Shown here: in pieces, positions 17,563 to 50,242 of the stretch
How the letters are laid out: each line of letters begins with the position of its first letter
Position numbering within the stretch: position 1 is the stretch's first letter
Origin: a virus
Virus record (IMG/VR): IMGVR_UViG_3300005805_000047
Span: 86,898 to 150,897 of that record
DNA length: 64,000 nucleotides
Reading direction: 5' to 3' (one strand)
Translations under genes and position numbers: made by a program
Notes under the pieces: model-generated
What the model was told of the DNA's origin: nothing
The model's input: the letters and a program-made list of their open reading frames with translations, nothing else
Databases searched by the model: none

Positions 17563-17660
17563 GTTTCCTCCTACTCAAATACTAAGGTCGCATCATTCAT
17601 GGGCGCACGGGGGCCAACCTCGTGGCGCGCCCGTAGATGACGTCTCCCTATGCTTGGTTT

Positions 17661-17864
17661 ATGGAAAAGAACCCGAATAACCAATACCTCATCAAAGCAG
17701 CACTGCTCACGCTTGCGAACTTCATGCTCGTGATCGTGGGGGCAGTCGTAGTCCCAAGCACGGCAATGTTCGTTGCTTGGGCCTTGGGTGCAGTTGTCCT
17801 TCACACGGTAATTCTCGTGTGGGTGGCAGTCGCCGACCTCAACCGTGAGTTTGGGGGGATCTGA
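17661..17864 (+). CDS. Small membrane protein (leaderless)
   Basis: Two hydrophobic helices; ATG 34 nt after motif at 17627. Confidence 0.65.
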   Translation: MEKNPNNQYLIKAALLTLANFMLVIVGAVVVPSTAMFVAWALGAVVLHTVILVWVAVADLNREFGGI

Positions 17865-17904
17865 ACTGACGCGCCCAAGGATGAGCAATCGTCATAATTG
17901 GAGT

Positions 17905-18231
17905 ATGGAAACACCGACCTCAATGACCCTCGATTCCGTATGGGCAGGCACTGTTCACGCCTTTGCCGGCAATACCTACGGGCAGATCAACGCGAGTCTG
18001 TACGTCGGCACGGAAGCGATCAGGCTTGTCCTAGCATTTCCTGAACTCGGCTACCCAGACGAAGCGCACGACTTTGGCTCAGGCGAAGAAGTCGATGCCT
18101 ATCTCGCCACTCGTTTCCCAAAGGGTTACAAGGCTGGTCTGTATGAGTTTGGACAGAAGATGATGGCAATCCATACTCCCGCTGCTCGGCAATTCGTGGC
18201 CGACAGCCACTTCCGTAGCTTGTGTGCGTAA
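17905..18231 (+). CDS. Hypothetical protein (leaderless)
   Basis: ATG 34 nt after motif at 17871. Confidence 0.7.
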   Translation: METPTSMTLDSVWAGTVHAFAGNTYGQINASLYVGTEAIRLVLAFPELGYPDEAHDFGSGEEVDAYLATRFPKGYKAGLYEFGQKMMAIHTPAARQFVADSHFRSLCA

Positions 18232-18242
18232 TCAAAATCAGT

Positions 18243-18276
18243 GCGCCGACGCATGACAATCCGTCATACTGTTTCT
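18243..18276 (+). promoter_or_regulatory. Promoter motif exemplar
   Basis: GCGCCGACGCATGACAATCCGTCATACTGTTTCT-ATG. Confidence 0.8.
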
Positions 18277-46293: not shown

Positions 46294-46335
46294 TACTGAT
46301 AAGGCAATACAACTACTACACCAACAAGGAGCGAC

Positions 46336-47064
46336 ATGACCACATCAACCACAACCGCACTCCCCGAGTGCTGGCAGACCGTCGAGGAGTGCCTCAACGC
46401 AGGCATTGACCGACTCATTCTGTTCGGGCCTCCGGGGCTCGGCAAGACCTACGCTGGACTCGCCTACGGCGATGTTCAGGCAGGAGCCTTCCGTCTTATT
46501 TGCACGGAAGACATGACAACCGCTGACGTTACTGGATGCTTCGTACCAAATGAAAAGGGTACGTTCACTTGGAACTACGGTTCGGCACTCAAAGCTTGGC
46601 AAGGCAATGGCAAAGTCGGTGGTCGTCTCGTAGTGGACGAAATCGACAAAGCTGGTGGCGATGTCGCTGCGACCTTGCTCGCCATGCTGGACACTCCAGA
46701 GTCAGCATCGTGGACTCACCCGACAACTGGTGAGGTAGTTCGTCCGCTCGCTGGGTTCAGCGCAGTGATGACGACCAACCTTGAGCAGATGGAAGAGTTG
46801 CCAACAGCACTCGCCGATCGATTCCCGGTTCGTGTGCGAATCAACGCACCACATCCCGATGCTCTCAAGCGACTCTCGCCTGACTTGCACAAGTATGCAG
46901 TGCGTATGGCCGATGCTGGTGAGCGACGCATTTCGTTGCGAGCGTTCTACGACTTCGATCGACTTCGTACTGAACTCGGCGACAAGAAAGCAGCGAGCAT
47001 CATTTTCCGTGATCGCTCAAGCGACTTGCTTGATGCCATCGCAGTGGACGGAGTCTCGGTATGA
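46336..47064 (+). CDS. MoxR/CbbQ-like AAA+ ATPase
   Basis: GPPGLGKT, LVVDEID, TTN, ALADRF. Confidence 0.88.
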   Translation: MTTSTTTALPECWQTVEECLNAGIDRLILFGPPGLGKTYAGLAYGDVQAGAFRLICTEDMTTADVTGCFVPNEKGTFTWNYGSALKAWQGNGKVGGRLVVDEIDKAGGDVAATLLAMLDTPESASWTHPTTGEVVRPLAGFSAVMTTNLEQMEELPTALADRFPVRVRINAPHPDALKRLSPDLHKYAVRMADAGERRISLRAFYDFDRLRTELGDKKAASIIFRDRSSDLLDAIAVDGVSV

Positions 47065-48536
47065 CCAAGACCAAAGAACGCACTCGCTCACCACAACCCG
47101 AGATGATCGGTCGTGGTGATCACGAACACGGTCGCTGGACAGTCGGCGACTCACCAGCGGCCCGAGGGATTCCTCACACTGACTTGCACAACCGAAAGAT
47201 GGTCGCACCTCACGGTGAGGACGAACTTGATCGTGTTATTCGTGGACACGAAATGATGCATGCCAAAGTGTCGCCAACTCCCGGCGAAATGATGGCATGG
47301 GTTGGTCGTGAGATAGCAACGCAAGGTTCGCTTGTCGCAGTTGAGGAAGCTCGCGTCAACACTTTGTGCACCCAAGTCGGAATTCCGGTGGACAAGTATC
47401 TGACTGACGGAACCGAAAAGGCAGGTGGAAAGAAACTTGCTGAGCAGGGCGATCTTCGAGGACTAGTTCACGGAGCAGTCGCTTGTGCAGGAACCATTGG
47501 TGGCAACGAGTTCATCAAGGGCGTCAAGTCCGAGAACAAGGCTCTTGCCAAAGTGCTTGCCAGCATTCAAAAGCAAGTGATGAAGCACCTCAACGGTGTG
47601 TACAAGGGCCAGCTCGCCGAGACAGCAAAAGATGGCGAACTAAGCAATGGATTCAGCCACGTTGAACGCATCGCCGAATGGGTTGATCAACTCATCGGCG
47701 AAATGGAAGACGAGCAGAAGCGTCTTGAGGAAGAGGCCAAGAGCAAGAGCGATGACGATTCTCGCGGCGACACAACCGATGATGAGTCAAGCGATGATGA
47801 GTCAGAGGAAACTGAAGCACCCAAGAAGCCGACCTCGAAAAAGCCCGAGTCAAAACCAGAACCGAGCGATCCGACAAAGAAGCGACGTGGGCCAACCAGC
47901 CACAAGATTCCAGCATGGGGCAAACTTCGTGTTGAGCGACTGCCGATGCCCGATGCTACTCGCGGCAACCTCGGTCGCAAGCGAGTCGCAAGCGACACTG
48001 GCAAGAACCCTCGCCGAATGCACCGATACCTCACCGACCGAAAGGTGTTTGATCGCACCAGTCGCGGTATGGGTGGAGTGGTGTTGATCGACGCAAGCGG
48101 TTCTATGCAGTTTGGACACAACGACATTCGTGAGATCGTTGAGTCAGCACCGGGTTGCACCGTTGCGATGTACACGTGGACCAGTGAGAGCAAACCAAAC
48201 TTGTGGATACTCGCTGAACGTGGTCGTATCTGCAAGGCCAGCGAGATGCCACAACATCGTTGCGGAAATGTCGTGGACCTACCAGCACTCAAATGGGCAG
48301 TCTCAAAGCGTCAGCGATCGACTGCACCAGTTATTTGGGTGAGCGATGGTGGGGTTACTGGCGAGAACGACAATGCTCACCCTGCACTCTCTCGCCAAGT
48401 GGTGCGATTCATTCAGCACCAGCGAGTGATAACAGTTCCCGATGTGAAGCGAGCGAAAGATTTGCTCGCCAAGCTCAGGAGCGGAGCGACTGCGACAGTG
48501 GAGATACCAGAGTATCTCCGATATCGCGCTTCGTGA
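47061..48536 (+). CDS. Metallopeptidase-like + VWA (MIDAS) partner protein
   Basis: HEMMH...EE.R, acidic linker, DASGSM, WVSDG. Confidence 0.8.
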   Translation: MTKTKERTRSPQPEMIGRGDHEHGRWTVGDSPAARGIPHTDLHNRKMVAPHGEDELDRVIRGHEMMHAKVSPTPGEMMAWVGREIATQGSLVAVEEARVNTLCTQVGIPVDKYLTDGTEKAGGKKLAEQGDLRGLVHGAVACAGTIGGNEFIKGVKSENKALAKVLASIQKQVMKHLNGVYKGQLAETAKDGELSNGFSHVERIAEWVDQLIGEMEDEQKRLEEEAKSKSDDDSRGDTTDDESSDDESEETEAPKKPTSKKPESKPEPSDPTKKRRGPTSHKIPAWGKLRVERLPMPDATRGNLGRKRVASDTGKNPRRMHRYLTDRKVFDRTSRGMGGVVLIDASGSMQFGHNDIREIVESAPGCTVAMYTWTSESKPNLWILAERGRICKASEMPQHRCGNVVDLPALKWAVSKRQRSTAPVIWVSDGGVTGENDNAHPALSRQVVRFIQHQRVITVPDVKRAKDLLAKLRSGATATVEIPEYLRYRAS

Positions 48537-48540
48537 TCAT

Positions 48541-48581
48541 GGGCCTGCCGGTGTTTGGGTCGCTCCTTCATCGGCAGGCTC
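48541..48581 (+). terminator. Hairpin after the VWA gene
   Basis: GGGCCTGCCGGTG...CATCGGCAGGCTC inverted repeat; no U-tract. Confidence 0.45.
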
Positions 48582-50242
48582 GCCATGCGTCAACGAATGA
48601 CGTAGGGATAGGTTCTACTATCAAAGTCTCGAAAGGACAAACATGACAACAGTACGACAGCTAATAGATTCATTAATGAAGTGTGAGGACTTGGACTCCC
48701 CAGTCATCTACGAGTACTACCTGAAGGATCACTTCGAGCACACTGGTGTTGATGACGAACAATGGGCCGCAGTCGTGGACCAGCTTGACAACATCCTCAC
48801 CGACGACGATGCTTACTCAATGGTCGTCGAAGCGATCAAGGGCGCACAGCTGAAGCCGGCCATGGTGGTCTACGATCTCGTGGACGACACAAAGTCAAAG
48901 GAGACACAATGACATTCGGAGATCCAGGAAGAGCCGGTAAGCGACTTGGCACAGGCGTACAGAGAGTCGATACCAATACGACGGTATACCTCGCCAGCGA
49001 TGACGTGGTCGAACTTATAGAGCGAGTGGATGGCTATCTAGGTGATACGACGTGGAGAATAGTCACGCTGGATCGAACTAACGACGGACAGTTCTACGCG
49101 TTCCTAACGCGGTTCTAGTCCCTGTTACGCAACCACATGCGCCAGGCAACAGCAATCAGGCCGAGACCGGCTGAGTCTCTCCATTCGAGAGTCCAAGTTA
49201 TTGCCCCGGCGTTATTGAGTATGCGCGTAGCAGCCCAGATCATGAAAGCATGGGCAATTGCAGTAGTTGCAAAAGCAAAAAGTATTGCCACGTATCGTGA
49301 GCGCCGCTTCGAGTTTTCATTCAGTTCTGGCATAGAACAAACATGGCTCCTTGTGGTGCGTAAAAGAATATCAACCTGGTTCAGGGTATCATTTATTGAC
49401 GGTGGAGGAAGACTTGTGGAATACGAAAACGATGTGTTCAAGAAGTTCGATGAGGCAGTAAACGACTCGAACCAGAACGATGACGATCCCACCATGCTGT
49501 TCATCGCCACCGACGGTCGCCGAGTCTATAAGGCTTTTACCGGGTCTGAATCAGCTGTCGGTCAGGAATCACCGGTGTTCTCCAGGGGATTTGACGACGA
49601 TGTGTTTATCGGAATCTGGTCTCACCAGTGGTTAAAGAACATCATTGAAGGTCTCGAACGTAAGCCAGATCCAAACGACGGCTGGTCCGAATTAATGGAG
49701 CAGATGGTTGTGGCTATTGCAGAGTATGCCGATCAAGAGTCACCCCCCGCGGCCAGGAGCTGTTGAGCCGCGCCACCACACCGACCGACTTCGTGCTTCA
49801 ACCGACCCACGGGGGGCACACAGATTGTCCCACAGCAAACCCAAACCCGGCGAAAGAAACTGGGTGTTTCCAGGCAAACGACGGTCTCAAAGTCATATTT
49901 TTAATGACGGTGGAGGATGACCCGGCAAAACGGTATTGTGACTCTGCGACACATGACTCTAAGTCATTGAAAAAAGATGCGTAATCGCAGCGTTAGGTGC
50001 TTGCATCCCATCAATGCGACCGCTAGGTTCTTCCTCGATAACGAAGTGGCGCCACAACCACTAGCTAAACTCGTCCCCACTTAGGGTGGGTTGGCCGGGC
50101 CCTTGCAAAAAACCGGTAATCGCCGGGTAAAGGTTCCCCCAAACCCCCTCCAAAGAGATTCCAGTATGATGGTTTTTCAGATTGGTTTCTCGTTGTTTGA
50201 AGGATGTGATTGACGGTGGTGGATGAAAATCAGGAGGATTCA

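What the first reader, a model, noticed from the sequence alone, without database searches (positions are those of the whole stretch)
17570..48620. About 40 copies of a phage-specific promoter-like element with fixed 34-nt spacing to leaderless ATGs
Seen: consensus (Y)GCGCCG-N4-ATGA-N8-(C/T)ANNNT-N6-ATG. Plus-strand copies start at 17627, 17871, 18243, 20979, 22814, 22998, 29600, 30120, 33581, 34173, 34928, 38490, 38799, 39146, 42821, 43140, 45090, 46270 and 48587. Minus-strand copies lie at about 17606, 22171, 22534, 22781, 26606, 27336, 27621, 28543, 29038, 29591, 31861, 32916, 33397, 33570, 37778, 38171, 38480, 41690, 42116, 42408 and 42790. In over 20 cases the ATG lies 33-35 nt (mostly 34) from the motif start with no Shine-Dalgarno; most others have a short leader with GGAG(G). 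The geometry fits -35/17-bp/-10 with a non-canonical -35 (YGCGCC) and a conserved mid-spacer ATGA. I saw no copies in the structural, lysis or modification modules. Inference: an early regulon read by host RNAP with a phage factor, such as the encoded WhiB or a sigma factor outside the window.
Basis: partly seen in the sequence, partly recalled or inferred. Interest (0 to 1): 0.82.

Follow-up and report, generated by a model that had tools for sequence, protein, structure and literature searches.

The report
Phage promoter set with leaderless starts
An uncultivated 151-kb phage of actinobacteria puts the same 33-base promoter in front of 41 tiny operons in one 31-kb block, usually so that the message begins exactly at the start codon; it is a clean new promoter consensus of a familiar kind, and what reads its unusual upstream half is still unknown.

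Summary
All lie in window 17.6-48.6 kb, and scores are bimodal, with nothing between 10.3 and 15 bits.

Every copy points at a co-oriented ORF. In 27, the ATG sits at the predicted +1. In 14, a 10-32 nt leader with a GGAG-type Shine-Dalgarno intervenes.

With +1 at the A of ATG, the element is a -37..-19 box (RRYGCGCCGAnRRATGAnG), then TAnnnT at -12..-7, then Y-1/A+1. The -10 half matches actinobacterial SigA promoters; the box is not a TTGACA/TTGCGA -35.

Three related IMG/VR contigs (50-60% GC) carry 68 further copies in the homologous block. More distant relatives carry either a different box at the same -27..-19 position or plain TTGAC/TTGCG -35 promoters.

No sigma factor, RNA polymerase, MotA or AsiA is detectable. 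Two WhiB genes lie outside the block, and the one that could be tested does not co-vary with the motif.

Best reading: host SigA promoters with a lineage-specific box, probably read by an unidentified phage factor. "Early" timing and the factor are untested.

The scan had already noted this same stretch, and analogous repeated leaderless promoters with other sequences in other phages.

The parts
17576..17608 (-). promoter copy with 10-nt leader and GGAG-type SD before ATG of a 142-aa ORF (17134-17562)
   Evidence: PWM 25.5 bits; start assignment
17625..17657 (+). promoter copy, leaderless: ATG of a 67-aa ORF (17661-17864) at predicted +1
   Evidence: PWM 29.4 bits
17869..17901 (+). promoter copy, leaderless: ATG of a 108-aa ORF (17905-18231) at predicted +1
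   Evidence: PWM 29.6 bits
18241..18273 (+). promoter copy, leaderless: ATG of a 49-aa ORF (18277-18426) at predicted +1
   Evidence: PWM 29.3 bits
20977..21009 (+). promoter copy with 13-nt leader, weak SD (AAGG), GTG of a 90-aa ORF (21026-21298); start least certain of the set
   Evidence: PWM 25.9 bits
22141..22173 (-). promoter copy, leaderless: ATG of a 51-aa ORF (21982-22137)
   Evidence: PWM 23.6 bits
22504..22536 (-). promoter copy, leaderless: ATG of a 108-aa ORF (22174-22500)
   Evidence: PWM 29.0 bits
22751..22783 (-). promoter copy, leaderless: ATG of an 80-aa ORF (22505-22747)
   Evidence: PWM 24.3 bits
22812..22844 (+). promoter copy, leaderless: ATG of a 58-aa ORF (22848-23024)
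   Evidence: PWM 27.4 bits
22996..23028 (+). promoter copy, leaderless: ATG of an 80-aa ORF (23032-23274); only copy with G instead of A at -11
   Evidence: PWM 25.3 bits
26576..26608 (-). promoter copy with 11-nt leader and SD before GTG of a 100-aa ORF (26259-26561); the SNF2 helicase gene (23803-25671) lies downstream on the same strand
   Evidence: PWM 19.9 bits
27306..27338 (-). promoter copy with 13-nt leader and SD before ATG of a 55-aa ORF (27122-27289)
   Evidence: PWM 21.0 bits
27591..27623 (-). promoter copy with 20-nt leader and SD before ATG of a 75-aa ORF (27340-27567)
   Evidence: PWM 22.5 bits
28513..28545 (-). promoter copy with 23-nt leader and SD before ATG of a 68-aa ORF (28280-28486)
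   Evidence: PWM 24.9 bits
29008..29040 (-). promoter copy (weakest), leaderless: ATG of a 157-aa ORF (28530-29003), offset +1
   Evidence: PWM 15.2 bits
29561..29593 (-). promoter copy, leaderless: ATG of a 104-aa ORF (29242-29556), offset +1
   Evidence: PWM 27.9 bits
29598..29630 (+). promoter copy, leaderless: ATG of an 89-aa ORF (29634-29903)
   Evidence: PWM 26.2 bits
30118..30150 (+). promoter copy, leaderless: ATG of an 81-aa ORF (30154-30399)
   Evidence: PWM 27.6 bits
31831..31863 (-). promoter copy, leaderless: ATG of a 90-aa ORF (31555-31827); operon continues to the Ltp-type lipoprotein gene (30436-31347)
   Evidence: PWM 30.0 bits
   Evidence: PWM 19.6 bits
32886..32918 (-). promoter copy, leaderless: ATG of a 76-aa ORF (32652-32882)
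   Evidence: PWM 32.9 bits
33367..33399 (-). promoter copy with 19-nt leader and GGAGG SD before ATG of a 141-aa ORF (32919-33344)
   Evidence: PWM 26.1 bits
33540..33572 (-). promoter copy, leaderless: ATG of a 45-aa ORF (33399-33536)
   Evidence: PWM 23.2 bits
33579..33611 (+). promoter copy, leaderless: ATG of a 109-aa ORF (33615-33944)
   Evidence: PWM 35.6 bits
34171..34203 (+). promoter copy (best score), leaderless: ATG of a 56-aa ORF (34207-34377)
   Evidence: PWM 35.9 bits
34926..34958 (+). promoter copy, leaderless: ATG of a 119-aa ORF (34962-35321); operon continues to a C5-methylase-like gene (35589-36230)
   Evidence: PWM 24.1 bits
37748..37780 (-). promoter copy with 24-nt leader and SD before GTG of an 82-aa ORF (37472-37720); fourth gene of this operon is an 83-aa XRE-type HTH protein (36814-37065)
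   Evidence: PWM 28.7 bits
38141..38173 (-). promoter copy, leaderless: ATG of a 79-aa ORF (37897-38136), offset +1
   Evidence: PWM 20.2 bits
38450..38482 (-). promoter copy, leaderless: ATG of a 99-aa ORF (38147-38446)
   Evidence: PWM 30.8 bits
38488..38520 (+). promoter copy, leaderless: ATG of a 94-aa ORF (38524-38808)
   Evidence: PWM 31.6 bits
38797..38829 (+). promoter copy, leaderless: ATG of a 103-aa ORF (38833-39144)
   Evidence: PWM 32.4 bits
39144..39176 (+). promoter copy with 25-nt leader and SD before ATG of a 132-aa ORF (39205-39603)
   Evidence: PWM 31.8 bits
41659..41691 (-). promoter copy with 32-nt leader and SD before ATG of a 155-aa ORF (41156-41623)
   Evidence: PWM 21.6 bits
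42086..42118 (-). promoter copy, leaderless: ATG of a 130-aa ORF (41691-42083), offset -1
   Evidence: PWM 32.3 bits
42378..42410 (-). promoter copy, leaderless: ATG of a 93-aa ORF (42093-42374)
   Evidence: PWM 28.0 bits
42760..42792 (-). promoter copy, leaderless: ATG of a 125-aa ORF (42379-42756)
   Evidence: PWM 32.6 bits
42819..42851 (+). promoter copy with 21-nt leader and SD before ATG of a 97-aa ORF (42876-43169)
   Evidence: PWM 29.6 bits
43138..43170 (+). promoter copy, leaderless: ATG of a 91-aa ORF (43175-43450), offset +1
   Evidence: PWM 29.4 bits
45088..45120 (+). promoter copy with 32-nt leader and SD before ATG of a 179-aa ORF (45156-45695)
   Evidence: PWM 28.8 bits
46268..46300 (+). 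promoter copy with 32-nt leader and SD before ATG of the 242-aa AAA_5 ATPase gene (46336-47064), followed by a 491-aa ORF
   Evidence: PWM 30.0 bits
48585..48617 (+). last promoter copy, 22-nt leader and SD before ATG of an 89-aa ORF (48643-48912)
   Evidence: PWM 24.1 bits
52902..53258 (-). WhiB-family gene (118 aa) outside the promoter block; considered and disfavoured as the specificity factor
   Evidence: Pfam Whib E 2.8e-15; conserved irrespective of motif type

Best explanation
The 41 elements are promoters of one transcription class of a lytic-looking, complete 151-kb siphovirus of Actinobacteria. The host RNA polymerase carrying the housekeeping sigma (SigA type) recognises the TAnnnT hexamer at -12..-7. 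It then starts at the conserved T(-1)/A(+1).

In 27 units that A is the A of the ATG, so the mRNA has no leader and is translated by the leaderless route common in Actinobacteria. In 14 units a 10-32 nt leader with a Shine-Dalgarno sequence follows.

The strongly conserved, asymmetric box at -37..-19 occupies the place of the -35 element and the upstream spacer, always at the same distance from the -10. I infer that a trans-acting specificity factor of the phage lineage reads it. That factor would be an activator or adaptor that bridges the box to sigma region 4, as in T4 MotA/AsiA 'sigma appropriation' or mycobacterial PafBC 'sigma adaptation'. Together the elements switch on about 80 small genes in about 41 units as one regulon.

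Shown:
- the motif, its statistics, geometry and orientation;
- its confinement to one block;
- its conservation in relatives;
- the absence of any recognisable phage sigma factor or polymerase.

Inferred:
- promoter activity and the position of the transcription start site;
- use of host SigA;
- the existence and phage origin of the box reader;
- the timing class.

My odds: promoter class about 0.85; box read by a phage-specified factor about 0.45.
For: Genome-wide confinement and bimodal scores: 41 copies, all in window 17.6-48.6 kb.

Position-specific conservation:
- G-34, C-33, G-32 and A-24 are invariant (41/41) and T-23 is 39/41.
- A-11 is 40/41 and T-7 is 41/41.
- C-15/G-14, T-1 (29/41) and A+1 (30/41) are enriched.
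- Nothing is conserved upstream of -38.

These -10 and +1 features match mapped M. tuberculosis promoters: TANNNT 7-12 bp upstream of the start site, often preceded by CGN, a purine at +1 flanked by a pyrimidine, and 22-26% leaderless genes (PMC3898074).

Rigid coupling: all 41 boxes have the hexamer at the identical spacing, and orphan boxes occur only at chance level, 5 against 6-15 expected.

Orientation: 41/41 copies face a co-oriented ORF start. None is internal or antisense. Six back-to-back divergent pairs are separated by 4-28 bp, so each box is read on its own rather than as a dimer site (coordinates).

TTGACA-type promoters are not enriched in the block: 11 against 16.7 +/- 3.6.

Conservation: 31, 26 and 11 copies with the same consensus and the same ATG offset lie in the homologous blocks of three IMG/VR contigs, which have 50%, 60% and 60% GC. 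Flanks diverge while core positions stay.

Lineage specificity: a relative whose helicase is 52% identical has 26 copies of a different box, GAYACACCC, at -27..-19. Another lineage has plain TTGAC/TTGCG-N17-18-TAnnnT leaderless promoters.

The strict pattern occurs only as 30 scattered single hits across 185,579 species genomes. It is therefore not a common cellular promoter form.

No Sigma70_r2, RNA polymerase, MotA or AsiA is found in the six-frame genome.

Hybrid promoters that combine a canonical -10 with a factor-specific element in place of the -35 are documented for PafBC (-28..-23; PMC8635444) and for T4 (MotA box at -30; PMC6755090).
Against: There are no transcript data, and the host is unknown.

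No candidate reader was identified. About 70 of the 80 block proteins have no family assignment, and the DNA-binding hints are either weak or not lineage-specific.

In mycobacteria the -10 alone is the dominant determinant of recognition and no -35 consensus exists (PMC3898074). These promoters might therefore work without any factor.

The invariant GCG at -34..-32 coincides with the GCG of the optimal mycobacterial -35, TTGCGA, at the optimal 18-bp spacing (PMC1616969). Part of the box could therefore be an ordinary sigma region 4 contact.

Motif type and phage lineage co-vary, but so may the hosts. The lineage specificity therefore does not prove a phage-encoded reader.
Confidence: 0.55

Rival explanations
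1. Host polymerase alone. The element is simply a very strong promoter optimised for the host's SigA holoenzyme. RYGCGC at -36..-31 would be a variant -35 (TTGCGA-like) with an 18-bp spacer. The conserved spacer block would tune DNA shape or contacts with general factors, as T4 early promoters carry extra conserved positions yet need no phage factor.
For: The GCG core and 18-bp spacing match the experimentally optimal mycobacterial -35, TTGCGA-N18-TANNNT (PMC1616969). -10-only recognition is the norm in M. tuberculosis (PMC3898074). No factor gene was found. If the genes are truly the first to be expressed, no phage protein would yet be available unless it were injected.
Against: None of the 41 copies has the TTG of a -35: position -36 is a purine in 38/41 and -35 is C in 21/41. 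About ten further positions (-30..-19) are conserved where sigma makes no base-specific contacts. Related phages use ordinary TTGAC/TTGCG -35 elements, or a quite different box at the same place. No genome in a 185,579-species collection shows more than one strict match.
Confidence: 0.22
2. Operator reading. The -10 alone makes the promoter, and the -37..-19 box is the binding site of a phage repressor that shuts the whole class off together. The repressor could be the XRE-type protein encoded in the block. This would resemble the asymmetric multi-copy stoperators of mycobacteriophage L5 (comparison recalled from my own knowledge, not checked in a paper here) or a Cro-like early shut-off.
For: An 83-aa XRE HTH protein is encoded inside a motif-driven operon. 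-10-only promoters are functional in Actinobacteria (PMC3898074). The box overlaps the region where bound protein would block polymerase.
Against: The box never occurs away from a -10 above chance, and its distance to the hexamer is invariant in 41/41 copies. Occlusion does not require that, whereas joint recognition does. The site is asymmetric and not palindromic. The XRE gene was found in only one of the three related contigs, although these are fragments. No integrase or other lysogeny function was seen in the Pfam scans.
Confidence: 0.13
3. A phage WhiB, or a cryptic phage sigma factor, is the reader. WhiB would bind SigA region 4 and retarget it to the box, or a divergent sigma would replace SigA.
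For: Two WhiB-family genes are present, at genome 76,736-77,026 and window 52,902-53,258. Phage Wbl proteins bind SigA region 4 through a conserved aromatic patch (PMC13013590).
Against: Both WhiB genes lie outside the regulon. The in-window one sits in an operon with the endolysin and a tail-spike-like gene. Its relatives, at 56-82% identity with a nearly invariant C-terminal tail, occur in at least 80 phage loci, of which only two carry the motif. One locus with the same tail variant lacks the motif. Conservation ends at -37, where WhiB7-type contacts would begin. No Sigma70_r2 is found in six frames at E<=1. The -10 is the housekeeping type.
Confidence: 0.07

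Closest known systems
Actinobacterial SigA promoters giving leaderless mRNAs (M. tuberculosis TSS maps; PMC3898074, PMC4633059)
   Same: TANNNT at -12..-7, often preceded by C/G-G-N. 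Purine at +1 with pyrimidine at -1. The start codon sits at +1 with no Shine-Dalgarno. No TTGACA-type -35.
   Different: Cellular promoters of this kind show no conserved sequence upstream of the -10. Here 19 bp (-37..-19) are conserved in all 41 copies, and in 68 more copies in relatives.
T4 middle promoters and MotA/AsiA sigma appropriation (PMC6755090)
   Same: A phage class of dozens of promoters that keep the host -10 and replace the -35 by a phage-specific asymmetric box near -30 at fixed distance. The phage has no RNA polymerase of its own.
   Different: The box sequence is unrelated. No MotA or AsiA homologue is present. The host is actinobacterial. Most transcripts are leaderless. The factor is hypothetical.
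PafBC 'sigma adaptation' promoters of mycobacteria (-26 element plus canonical -10, no -35; PMC8635444)
   Same: An actinobacterial SigA -10 combined with a specific element in the -28..-19 region. The geometry is conserved. A related phage lineage has its own different box at exactly this position.
   Different: The element sequence differs (no GTC core). The only WYL domain in the genome sits, without an HTH, inside the virion cargo polyprotein next to an exonuclease. PafBC is a host stress regulator, not a phage factor.
PeSL cassettes (early promoter plus stem-loop) of T4-type phages (PMC2839356, PMC4122927)
   Same: Many near-identical promoter cassettes punctuate a region of small, variable, mostly unknown genes.
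   Different: No associated stem-loop: terminator-like sites are at chance level. Synteny breakpoints against relatives are not enriched at motif junctions: 3/6 against 20/43, and 3/7 against 8/19.
Stoperators of cluster A mycobacteriophages (L5 gp71 sites; recalled from my own knowledge, not checked in a paper here)
   Same: An asymmetric site of about 13-14 bp in tens of copies, oriented with transcription.
   Different: Stoperators occur independently of promoters. Here the box is always fused to a -10 at one spacing. No repressor or integrase module was seen.

Membership tests
Actinobacterial SigA-type (-10 dominated) leaderless promoters | TANNNT hexamer 7-12 bp upstream of the start point | tested here: met
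   A-11 in 40/41 and T-7 in 41/41; the hexamer ends 6 nt before the A of ATG in the leaderless copies. The start site itself is inferred.
Actinobacterial SigA-type (-10 dominated) leaderless promoters | Purine at +1 flanked by pyrimidine; C/G-G-N before the hexamer in about half | tested here: met
   A+1 30/41, T-1 29/41, G-14 23/41, C-15 17/41, compared with PMC3898074.
Actinobacterial SigA-type (-10 dominated) leaderless promoters | AUG/GUG at the 5' end, no Shine-Dalgarno | tested here: met
   27 of 41 copies; the other 14 carry leaders with GGAG-type SD.
Actinobacterial SigA-type (-10 dominated) leaderless promoters | Mapped transcription start site | not testable with these tools
   No transcriptome; uncultivated phage, unknown host.
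Canonical -35/-10 housekeeping promoters (TTGACA or TTGCGA, 17-18 bp, TANNNT) | -35 hexamer beginning with TTG | tested here: not met
   0 of 41 have TTG at either register; only the GCG of TTGCGA is shared at 18-bp spacing. A TTGACA-type scan of the block is below chance.
Sigma appropriation/adaptation hybrid promoters (T4 MotA box; PafBC -26 element) | Canonical -10 kept, -35 replaced by a factor-specific box at fixed distance | tested here: met
   Box at -37..-19 with invariant spacing in 41/41; orphan boxes at chance level.
Sigma appropriation/adaptation hybrid promoters (T4 MotA box; PafBC -26 element) | Cognate factor encoded (MotA+AsiA, or an HTH-WYL pair) | tested here: not met
   No MotA_activ, no AsiA. 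The single WYL hit lies in the cargo polyprotein next to an exonuclease, with no HTH detected.
Sigma appropriation/adaptation hybrid promoters (T4 MotA box; PafBC -26 element) | Factor-dependent transcription | not testable with these tools
   Needs in vitro transcription or reporter assays.
Promoters of a phage-encoded sigma factor or RNA polymerase | Phage gene for a sigma factor or a polymerase | tested here: not met
   Six-frame HMM searches of the complete genome find no Sigma70_r2 and no Rpb2_6. Sigma70_r4 gives only a 13.8-bit hit in the XRE protein. The T7-type RNAP search was blank but its control was uninformative.
PeSL mobile promoter cassettes | Promoter joined to a stem-loop, sitting at gene-shuffling junctions | tested here: not met
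   Terminator-like hairpins at chance level; breakpoints not enriched at motif junctions (small numbers).
Stoperator-type repressor sites | Sites function away from promoters, in many intergenic places | tested here: not met
   Only 5 orphan boxes of at least 9 bits genome-wide, against 6-15 in simulated sequence.

The most novel reading that the evidence does not exclude
This family of large freshwater-type actinophages carries interchangeable adaptor proteins, possibly delivered with the DNA as part of the giant virion cargo polyproteins. Each adaptor retargets host SigA polymerase to a lineage-specific box at about -27..-19. One lineage has RRATGAnG preceded by GCGCC, another has GAYACACCC, and a third has none. 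This would be a phage counterpart of PafBC-type sigma adaptation. It would also explain how 41 leaderless units fire together without a phage sigma factor.
Probability: 0.3. Interest if true: 0.72.

Novelty: new variant of a known kind. Interest (0 to 1): 0.5.

Why it matters
Phages that lack their own polymerase must redirect the host enzyme. For actinobacterial hosts I know of no described phage mechanism of the T4 MotA/AsiA kind (my own knowledge; the literature was not searched systematically for this).

Here there are 109 copies of one hybrid promoter in four related genomes with different GC content. Sister lineages carry a different box at the same position, or none. Together these give a defined sequence target for finding such a factor by DNA pull-down, one-hybrid screening or co-expression reporters.

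The set also gives a compact, portable promoter that produces leaderless messages, which could be useful for expression in Actinobacteria.

If host polymerase alone turns out to read it, the finding is only a clean catalogue of one phage's promoters.

Tried and rejected
1. Nearest cultured phages. There is no nucleotide match in 50,697 phage records. The helicase reaches only about 30% identity to Arthrobacter and Gordonia phages, so no transcriptome of a relative can be borrowed.

2. The 204-aa protein with a sigma-r4-like N-terminal HTH (genome 78,748-79,362; E 5.9e-5, below the cut-off). It is 53-55% identical, including the HTH, in relatives that use other promoter types. It has the HTH-plus-coiled-coil look of a small terminase subunit. 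Rejected as the box reader.

3. WhiB co-variation test. It was negative.

4. The conserved protein downstream of a non-motif promoter at 20,388/20,547-20,975. It has over 1,200 relatives at 72-89% identity. It is therefore a core gene, too widespread to explain a motif limited to a few contigs.

5. The neighbouring 89-aa protein (19,997-20,266). It is lineage-restricted but strongly acidic, and so not a DNA binder.

6. Pfam and PHROG scans of 20 further conserved small proteins gave only unknown-function families or sub-threshold hits.

7. Restriction-site logic. GCGC is not avoided in the genome, with an observed/expected ratio of 1.06.

8. PeSL-type shuffling. No enrichment of breakpoints at motif junctions.

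9. Rfam. Only tRNAs were found in the block.

10. Strict-pattern scan of cellular genomes. It gave 30 unrelated single hits and no host signal.

11. Canonical TTG-type promoters in front of genes elsewhere in the genome. Only a handful were found, so no clear earlier promoter class could be defined.

12. No structure prediction or complex prediction was run, because no candidate justified one.

Full report
**Context**

The window is the last 64 kb of a single-contig virus record of 150,897 bp. IMG/VR classes the record as having direct terminal repeats, and CheckV rates it 100% complete. The first and last ~95 nt are the same repeat.

The genome map is as follows:
- A siphovirus-type structural region holds portal, capsid, tape measure, tail fibres and large terminase.
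- Three giant cargo proteins of 4,898, 1,456 and 3,152 aa are present.
- A replication and modification region holds primase-helicase, ribonucleotide reductase and several DNA methylases.
- A minus-strand operon carries endolysin, a lectin/NosD-type 1,451-aa protein and a WhiB gene.

An actinobacterial host is indicated by four points:
- Two WhiB-family genes are present. The family is confined to Actinobacteria and their phages (PMC13013590).
- The nearest helicases are in Arthrobacter and Gordonia phages.
- One relative of a block protein is annotated from an "Actinobacteria bacterium" MAG.
- The promoter grammar described below is actinobacterial.

**Observation**

The crude core pattern is six-fold over chance.

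A 33-nt matrix built from the copies holds 26 bits. Run on the whole genome it returns 41 sites of 15-36 bits. All lie between window 17,576 and 48,617. Simulated sequences that keep dinucleotide frequencies give at most four sites even at 10 bits. Inside the window nothing scores between 5 and 15 bits except one 10.3-bit site, so the set is sharply bounded. One copy, at 32415(-), is new.

**Anatomy**

I set +1 at the A of the ATG of the leaderless copies. The profile of the 41 copies is then:
- Positions -37/-36 are purines and -35 is a pyrimidine.
- G-34, C-33 and G-32 are invariant.
- C-31 and C-30 are each about 80%. G-29 is 61% and A-28 is 73%.
- Positions -26/-25 are purines.
- A-24 is invariant, T-23 is 39/41, G-22 is 78%, A-21 is 68% and G-19 is 76%.
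- G-14 is 56% and C-15 is 41%.
- The hexamer is T-12, A-11 (40/41), three free positions, then T-7 (41/41).
- T-1 is 71% and A+1 is 73%.
- Nothing is conserved upstream of -38.

In 27 copies an ATG at +1 opens an ORF of 45-157 aa. Of these, 22 are exact, four are one base later and one is one base earlier. In the other 14, a 10-32 nt leader with a GGAG- or AAGG-type Shine-Dalgarno sequence precedes the start.

All 41 copies face a co-oriented ORF. 28 are intergenic and 13 lie in the last codons of the preceding co-oriented gene. None is internal or antisense.

A scan with the box alone shows that each of the 41 boxes has the hexamer at the same spacing. Boxes without a hexamer number 5, against 6-15 in simulated sequence, which is chance level.

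Six pairs are back to back, with 4, 5, 6, 16, 26 and 28 bp between them (coordinates). Each box therefore acts alone, not as half of a dimer site.

The block holds about 80 genes with a median length of 90 aa. It contains no excess of TTGACA-type promoters and no excess of hairpin terminators.

**Why it is a promoter**

The downstream half reproduces the promoter features mapped in M. tuberculosis (PMC3898074):
- TANNNT lies 7-12 bp before the start.
- CGN precedes the hexamer in about half of the promoters.
- A purine sits at +1 next to a pyrimidine.
- A quarter of genes are leaderless.

Fixed placement of an ATG 6 nt after the hexamer in 27 independent units has no other obvious explanation. 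Rfam finds only tRNAs in the region.

**The upstream half**

The box is not a canonical -35, because no copy has TTG. Read with an 18-bp spacer, RYGCGC shares the invariant GCG with TTGCGA. TTGCGA is the -35 found optimal for mycobacterial polymerase, at an optimal spacing of 18 bp (PMC1616969). Part of the box could therefore still touch sigma region 4. That does not explain the ten conserved positions from -30 to -19.

**Relatives**

IMG/VR contigs whose SNF2 helicase is 78-88% identical carry the same element at about one per kb in the homologous block. There are 31 copies in a 48-kb contig of 50% GC. There are 26 and 11 copies in contigs of 60% GC. The consensus is the same, and ATG sits at the same offset in 20, 15 and 7 of them. 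At orthologous promoters the core positions persist while flanks diverge.

Contigs with 52-54% helicase identity have no copy. One of them has 26 copies of a different cassette. It consists of a TTGACn or aACCyT -35, then GAYACACCC at -27..-19, a TAnAAT-type hexamer, a conserved leader and a Shine-Dalgarno sequence. The others have ordinary TTGAC/TTGCG-N17-18-TAnnnT promoters directly before ATG.

So the lineage-specific block sits at the same place in two lineages with different sequence, and is absent in a third. That place corresponds to the -28..-23 element read by PafBC in mycobacterial sigma adaptation (PMC8635444). It lies close to the T4 MotA box at -30 (PMC6755090).

A strict form of the pattern occurs only as 30 scattered single matches in one genome from each of 185,579 species. 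No cellular genome uses it repeatedly at that stringency.

**Who reads the box?**

The complete genome has none of the following in six-frame HMM searches: Sigma70 region 2, multisubunit polymerase, MotA or AsiA. The T7-type polymerase search was blank, but its control was uninformative.

The two sigma-r4-like HTH hits were examined:
- One is an XRE protein inside the block.
- The other is a 204-aa protein that is equally conserved, HTH included, in relatives with other promoter types, and looks like a small terminase subunit.

The in-window WhiB belongs to a family found next to at least 80 phage loci at 56-82% identity, with an almost invariant C-terminal tail. Only two of those loci carry the motif, and one locus with the same tail variant lacks it. 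The second WhiB (genome 76,736-77,026) could not be tested, because the related contigs do not cover it.

A WYL domain scoring above threshold lies in the 3,152-aa cargo polyprotein next to an RNase T-type exonuclease, without an HTH. It is not evidence for a PafBC-like regulator.

I found no candidate that justified a structure or complex prediction.

**Assessment**

The promoter nature of the set is well supported by sequence evidence alone (about 0.85). My odds for the box are:
- A phage-specified activator or adaptor: about 0.45.
- Host polymerase alone: about 0.22.
- An operator for a class-wide repressor: about 0.13.
- WhiB or a cryptic sigma factor: about 0.07.
- Something else: the remainder.

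The invariant box-to-hexamer spacing, the asymmetry of the box and the box swap between sister lineages favour joint recognition with the polymerase. The sufficiency of -10 elements in Actinobacteria, the GCG match to TTGCGA and the lack of a candidate gene argue for caution. "Early" timing fits the gene content of many tiny unknown genes, SSB, an SNF2 helicase, an Ltp-type exclusion lipoprotein and an AAA ATPase, but it is not shown.

**Novelty**

Multi-copy class promoters are textbook phage biology. This scan has already noted the same stretch from another window. It has also noted analogous repeated leaderless promoters with other sequences in other uncultivated actinophages.

Three things are new here:
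- This consensus.
- Its hybrid build: a SigA-type -10 plus a 19-bp non-canonical box.
- The evidence that related phages carry a different box, or none, at the same position.

I rate it a new variant of a known kind, of moderate interest.

Noticed in passing
window 40627, 44148, 49398, 49906, 50212, 50629, 50792, 51003, 51264, 51434, 51554 (all + strand): A second repeated element, (T)TGACGGTGG(T/A/C)(G/C)GATGAC, occurs in 11 copies. Nine lie in the gene-poor 49.4-51.6 kb stretch between the promoter block and a tRNA cluster. It is not a consistent ORF start and has no hexamer at fixed distance. Its core 9-mers are the top repeats next to the WhiB gene in many other phage lineages, so it is far more widely conserved than the promoter box. 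It may be an origin/iteron or protein-binding array.
   Followed up: partly
L014 (IMGVR_UViG_3300042558_002277), 26 sites between 98 and 18903: A relative with 52% helicase identity has its own cassette: a TTGACn/aACCyT -35, GAYACACCC at -27..-19, TAnAAT, a conserved leader cATACCTACTAga, then AAAGGAAA and ATG. From memory, the box contains GACAC, the short motif reported for Streptomyces WhiA; this was not checked here.
   Followed up: partly
window 10902-11078 (+), inside the 3152-aa ORF 6801-16259: A WYL domain (26.6 bits, above the Pfam cut-off) lies within one module of the virion cargo polyprotein, followed by an RNase T/DEDD exonuclease domain. No HTH was detected with it.
   Followed up: partly
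window 18841-19028 (-) and 52571-52896 (+); L001 3179-3257: Seven tRNA genes: Ile(tat) and Met inside the promoter block in a unit without the motif; Arg(cct), Arg(tct), Asn and Thr in a cluster just before the WhiB operon; Glu(ttc) in the first 4 kb of the genome.
   Followed up: no
window 19951-19996 and flanking genes 19492-19950 (-), 19997-20266 (+), 20388-20975 (+): A divergent pair inside the block lacks the motif. On one side is SSB. On the other are a strongly acidic 89-aa lineage-restricted protein and a ~195-aa core protein with over 1,200 relatives at 72-89% identity. The + unit has TAGACT 8 nt before its ATG and TTCCGT 17 bp upstream, so it may be an ordinary host-type promoter.
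   Followed up: partly
L004:18748-19359 (+) = genome 78,748-79,362: A 204-aa protein has an N-terminal sigma-r4-like HTH and a conserved ELERLDALQ coiled coil. It lies next to the primase-helicase, far from the large terminase gene (genome 40,441-41,745). It looks like a small terminase subunit or a replication-associated DNA binder.
   Followed up: partly
window 42239 (+): A single strong orphan box (17 bits) without a -10 hexamer lies antisense inside the ORF 42093-42374.
   Followed up: no
related contigs G001/G005 versus G000/G002: Phages sharing the promoter consensus and 78-88% identical helicases differ by 10 points in GC content (60% versus 50%), which suggests different hosts or rapid compositional drift.
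   Followed up: no
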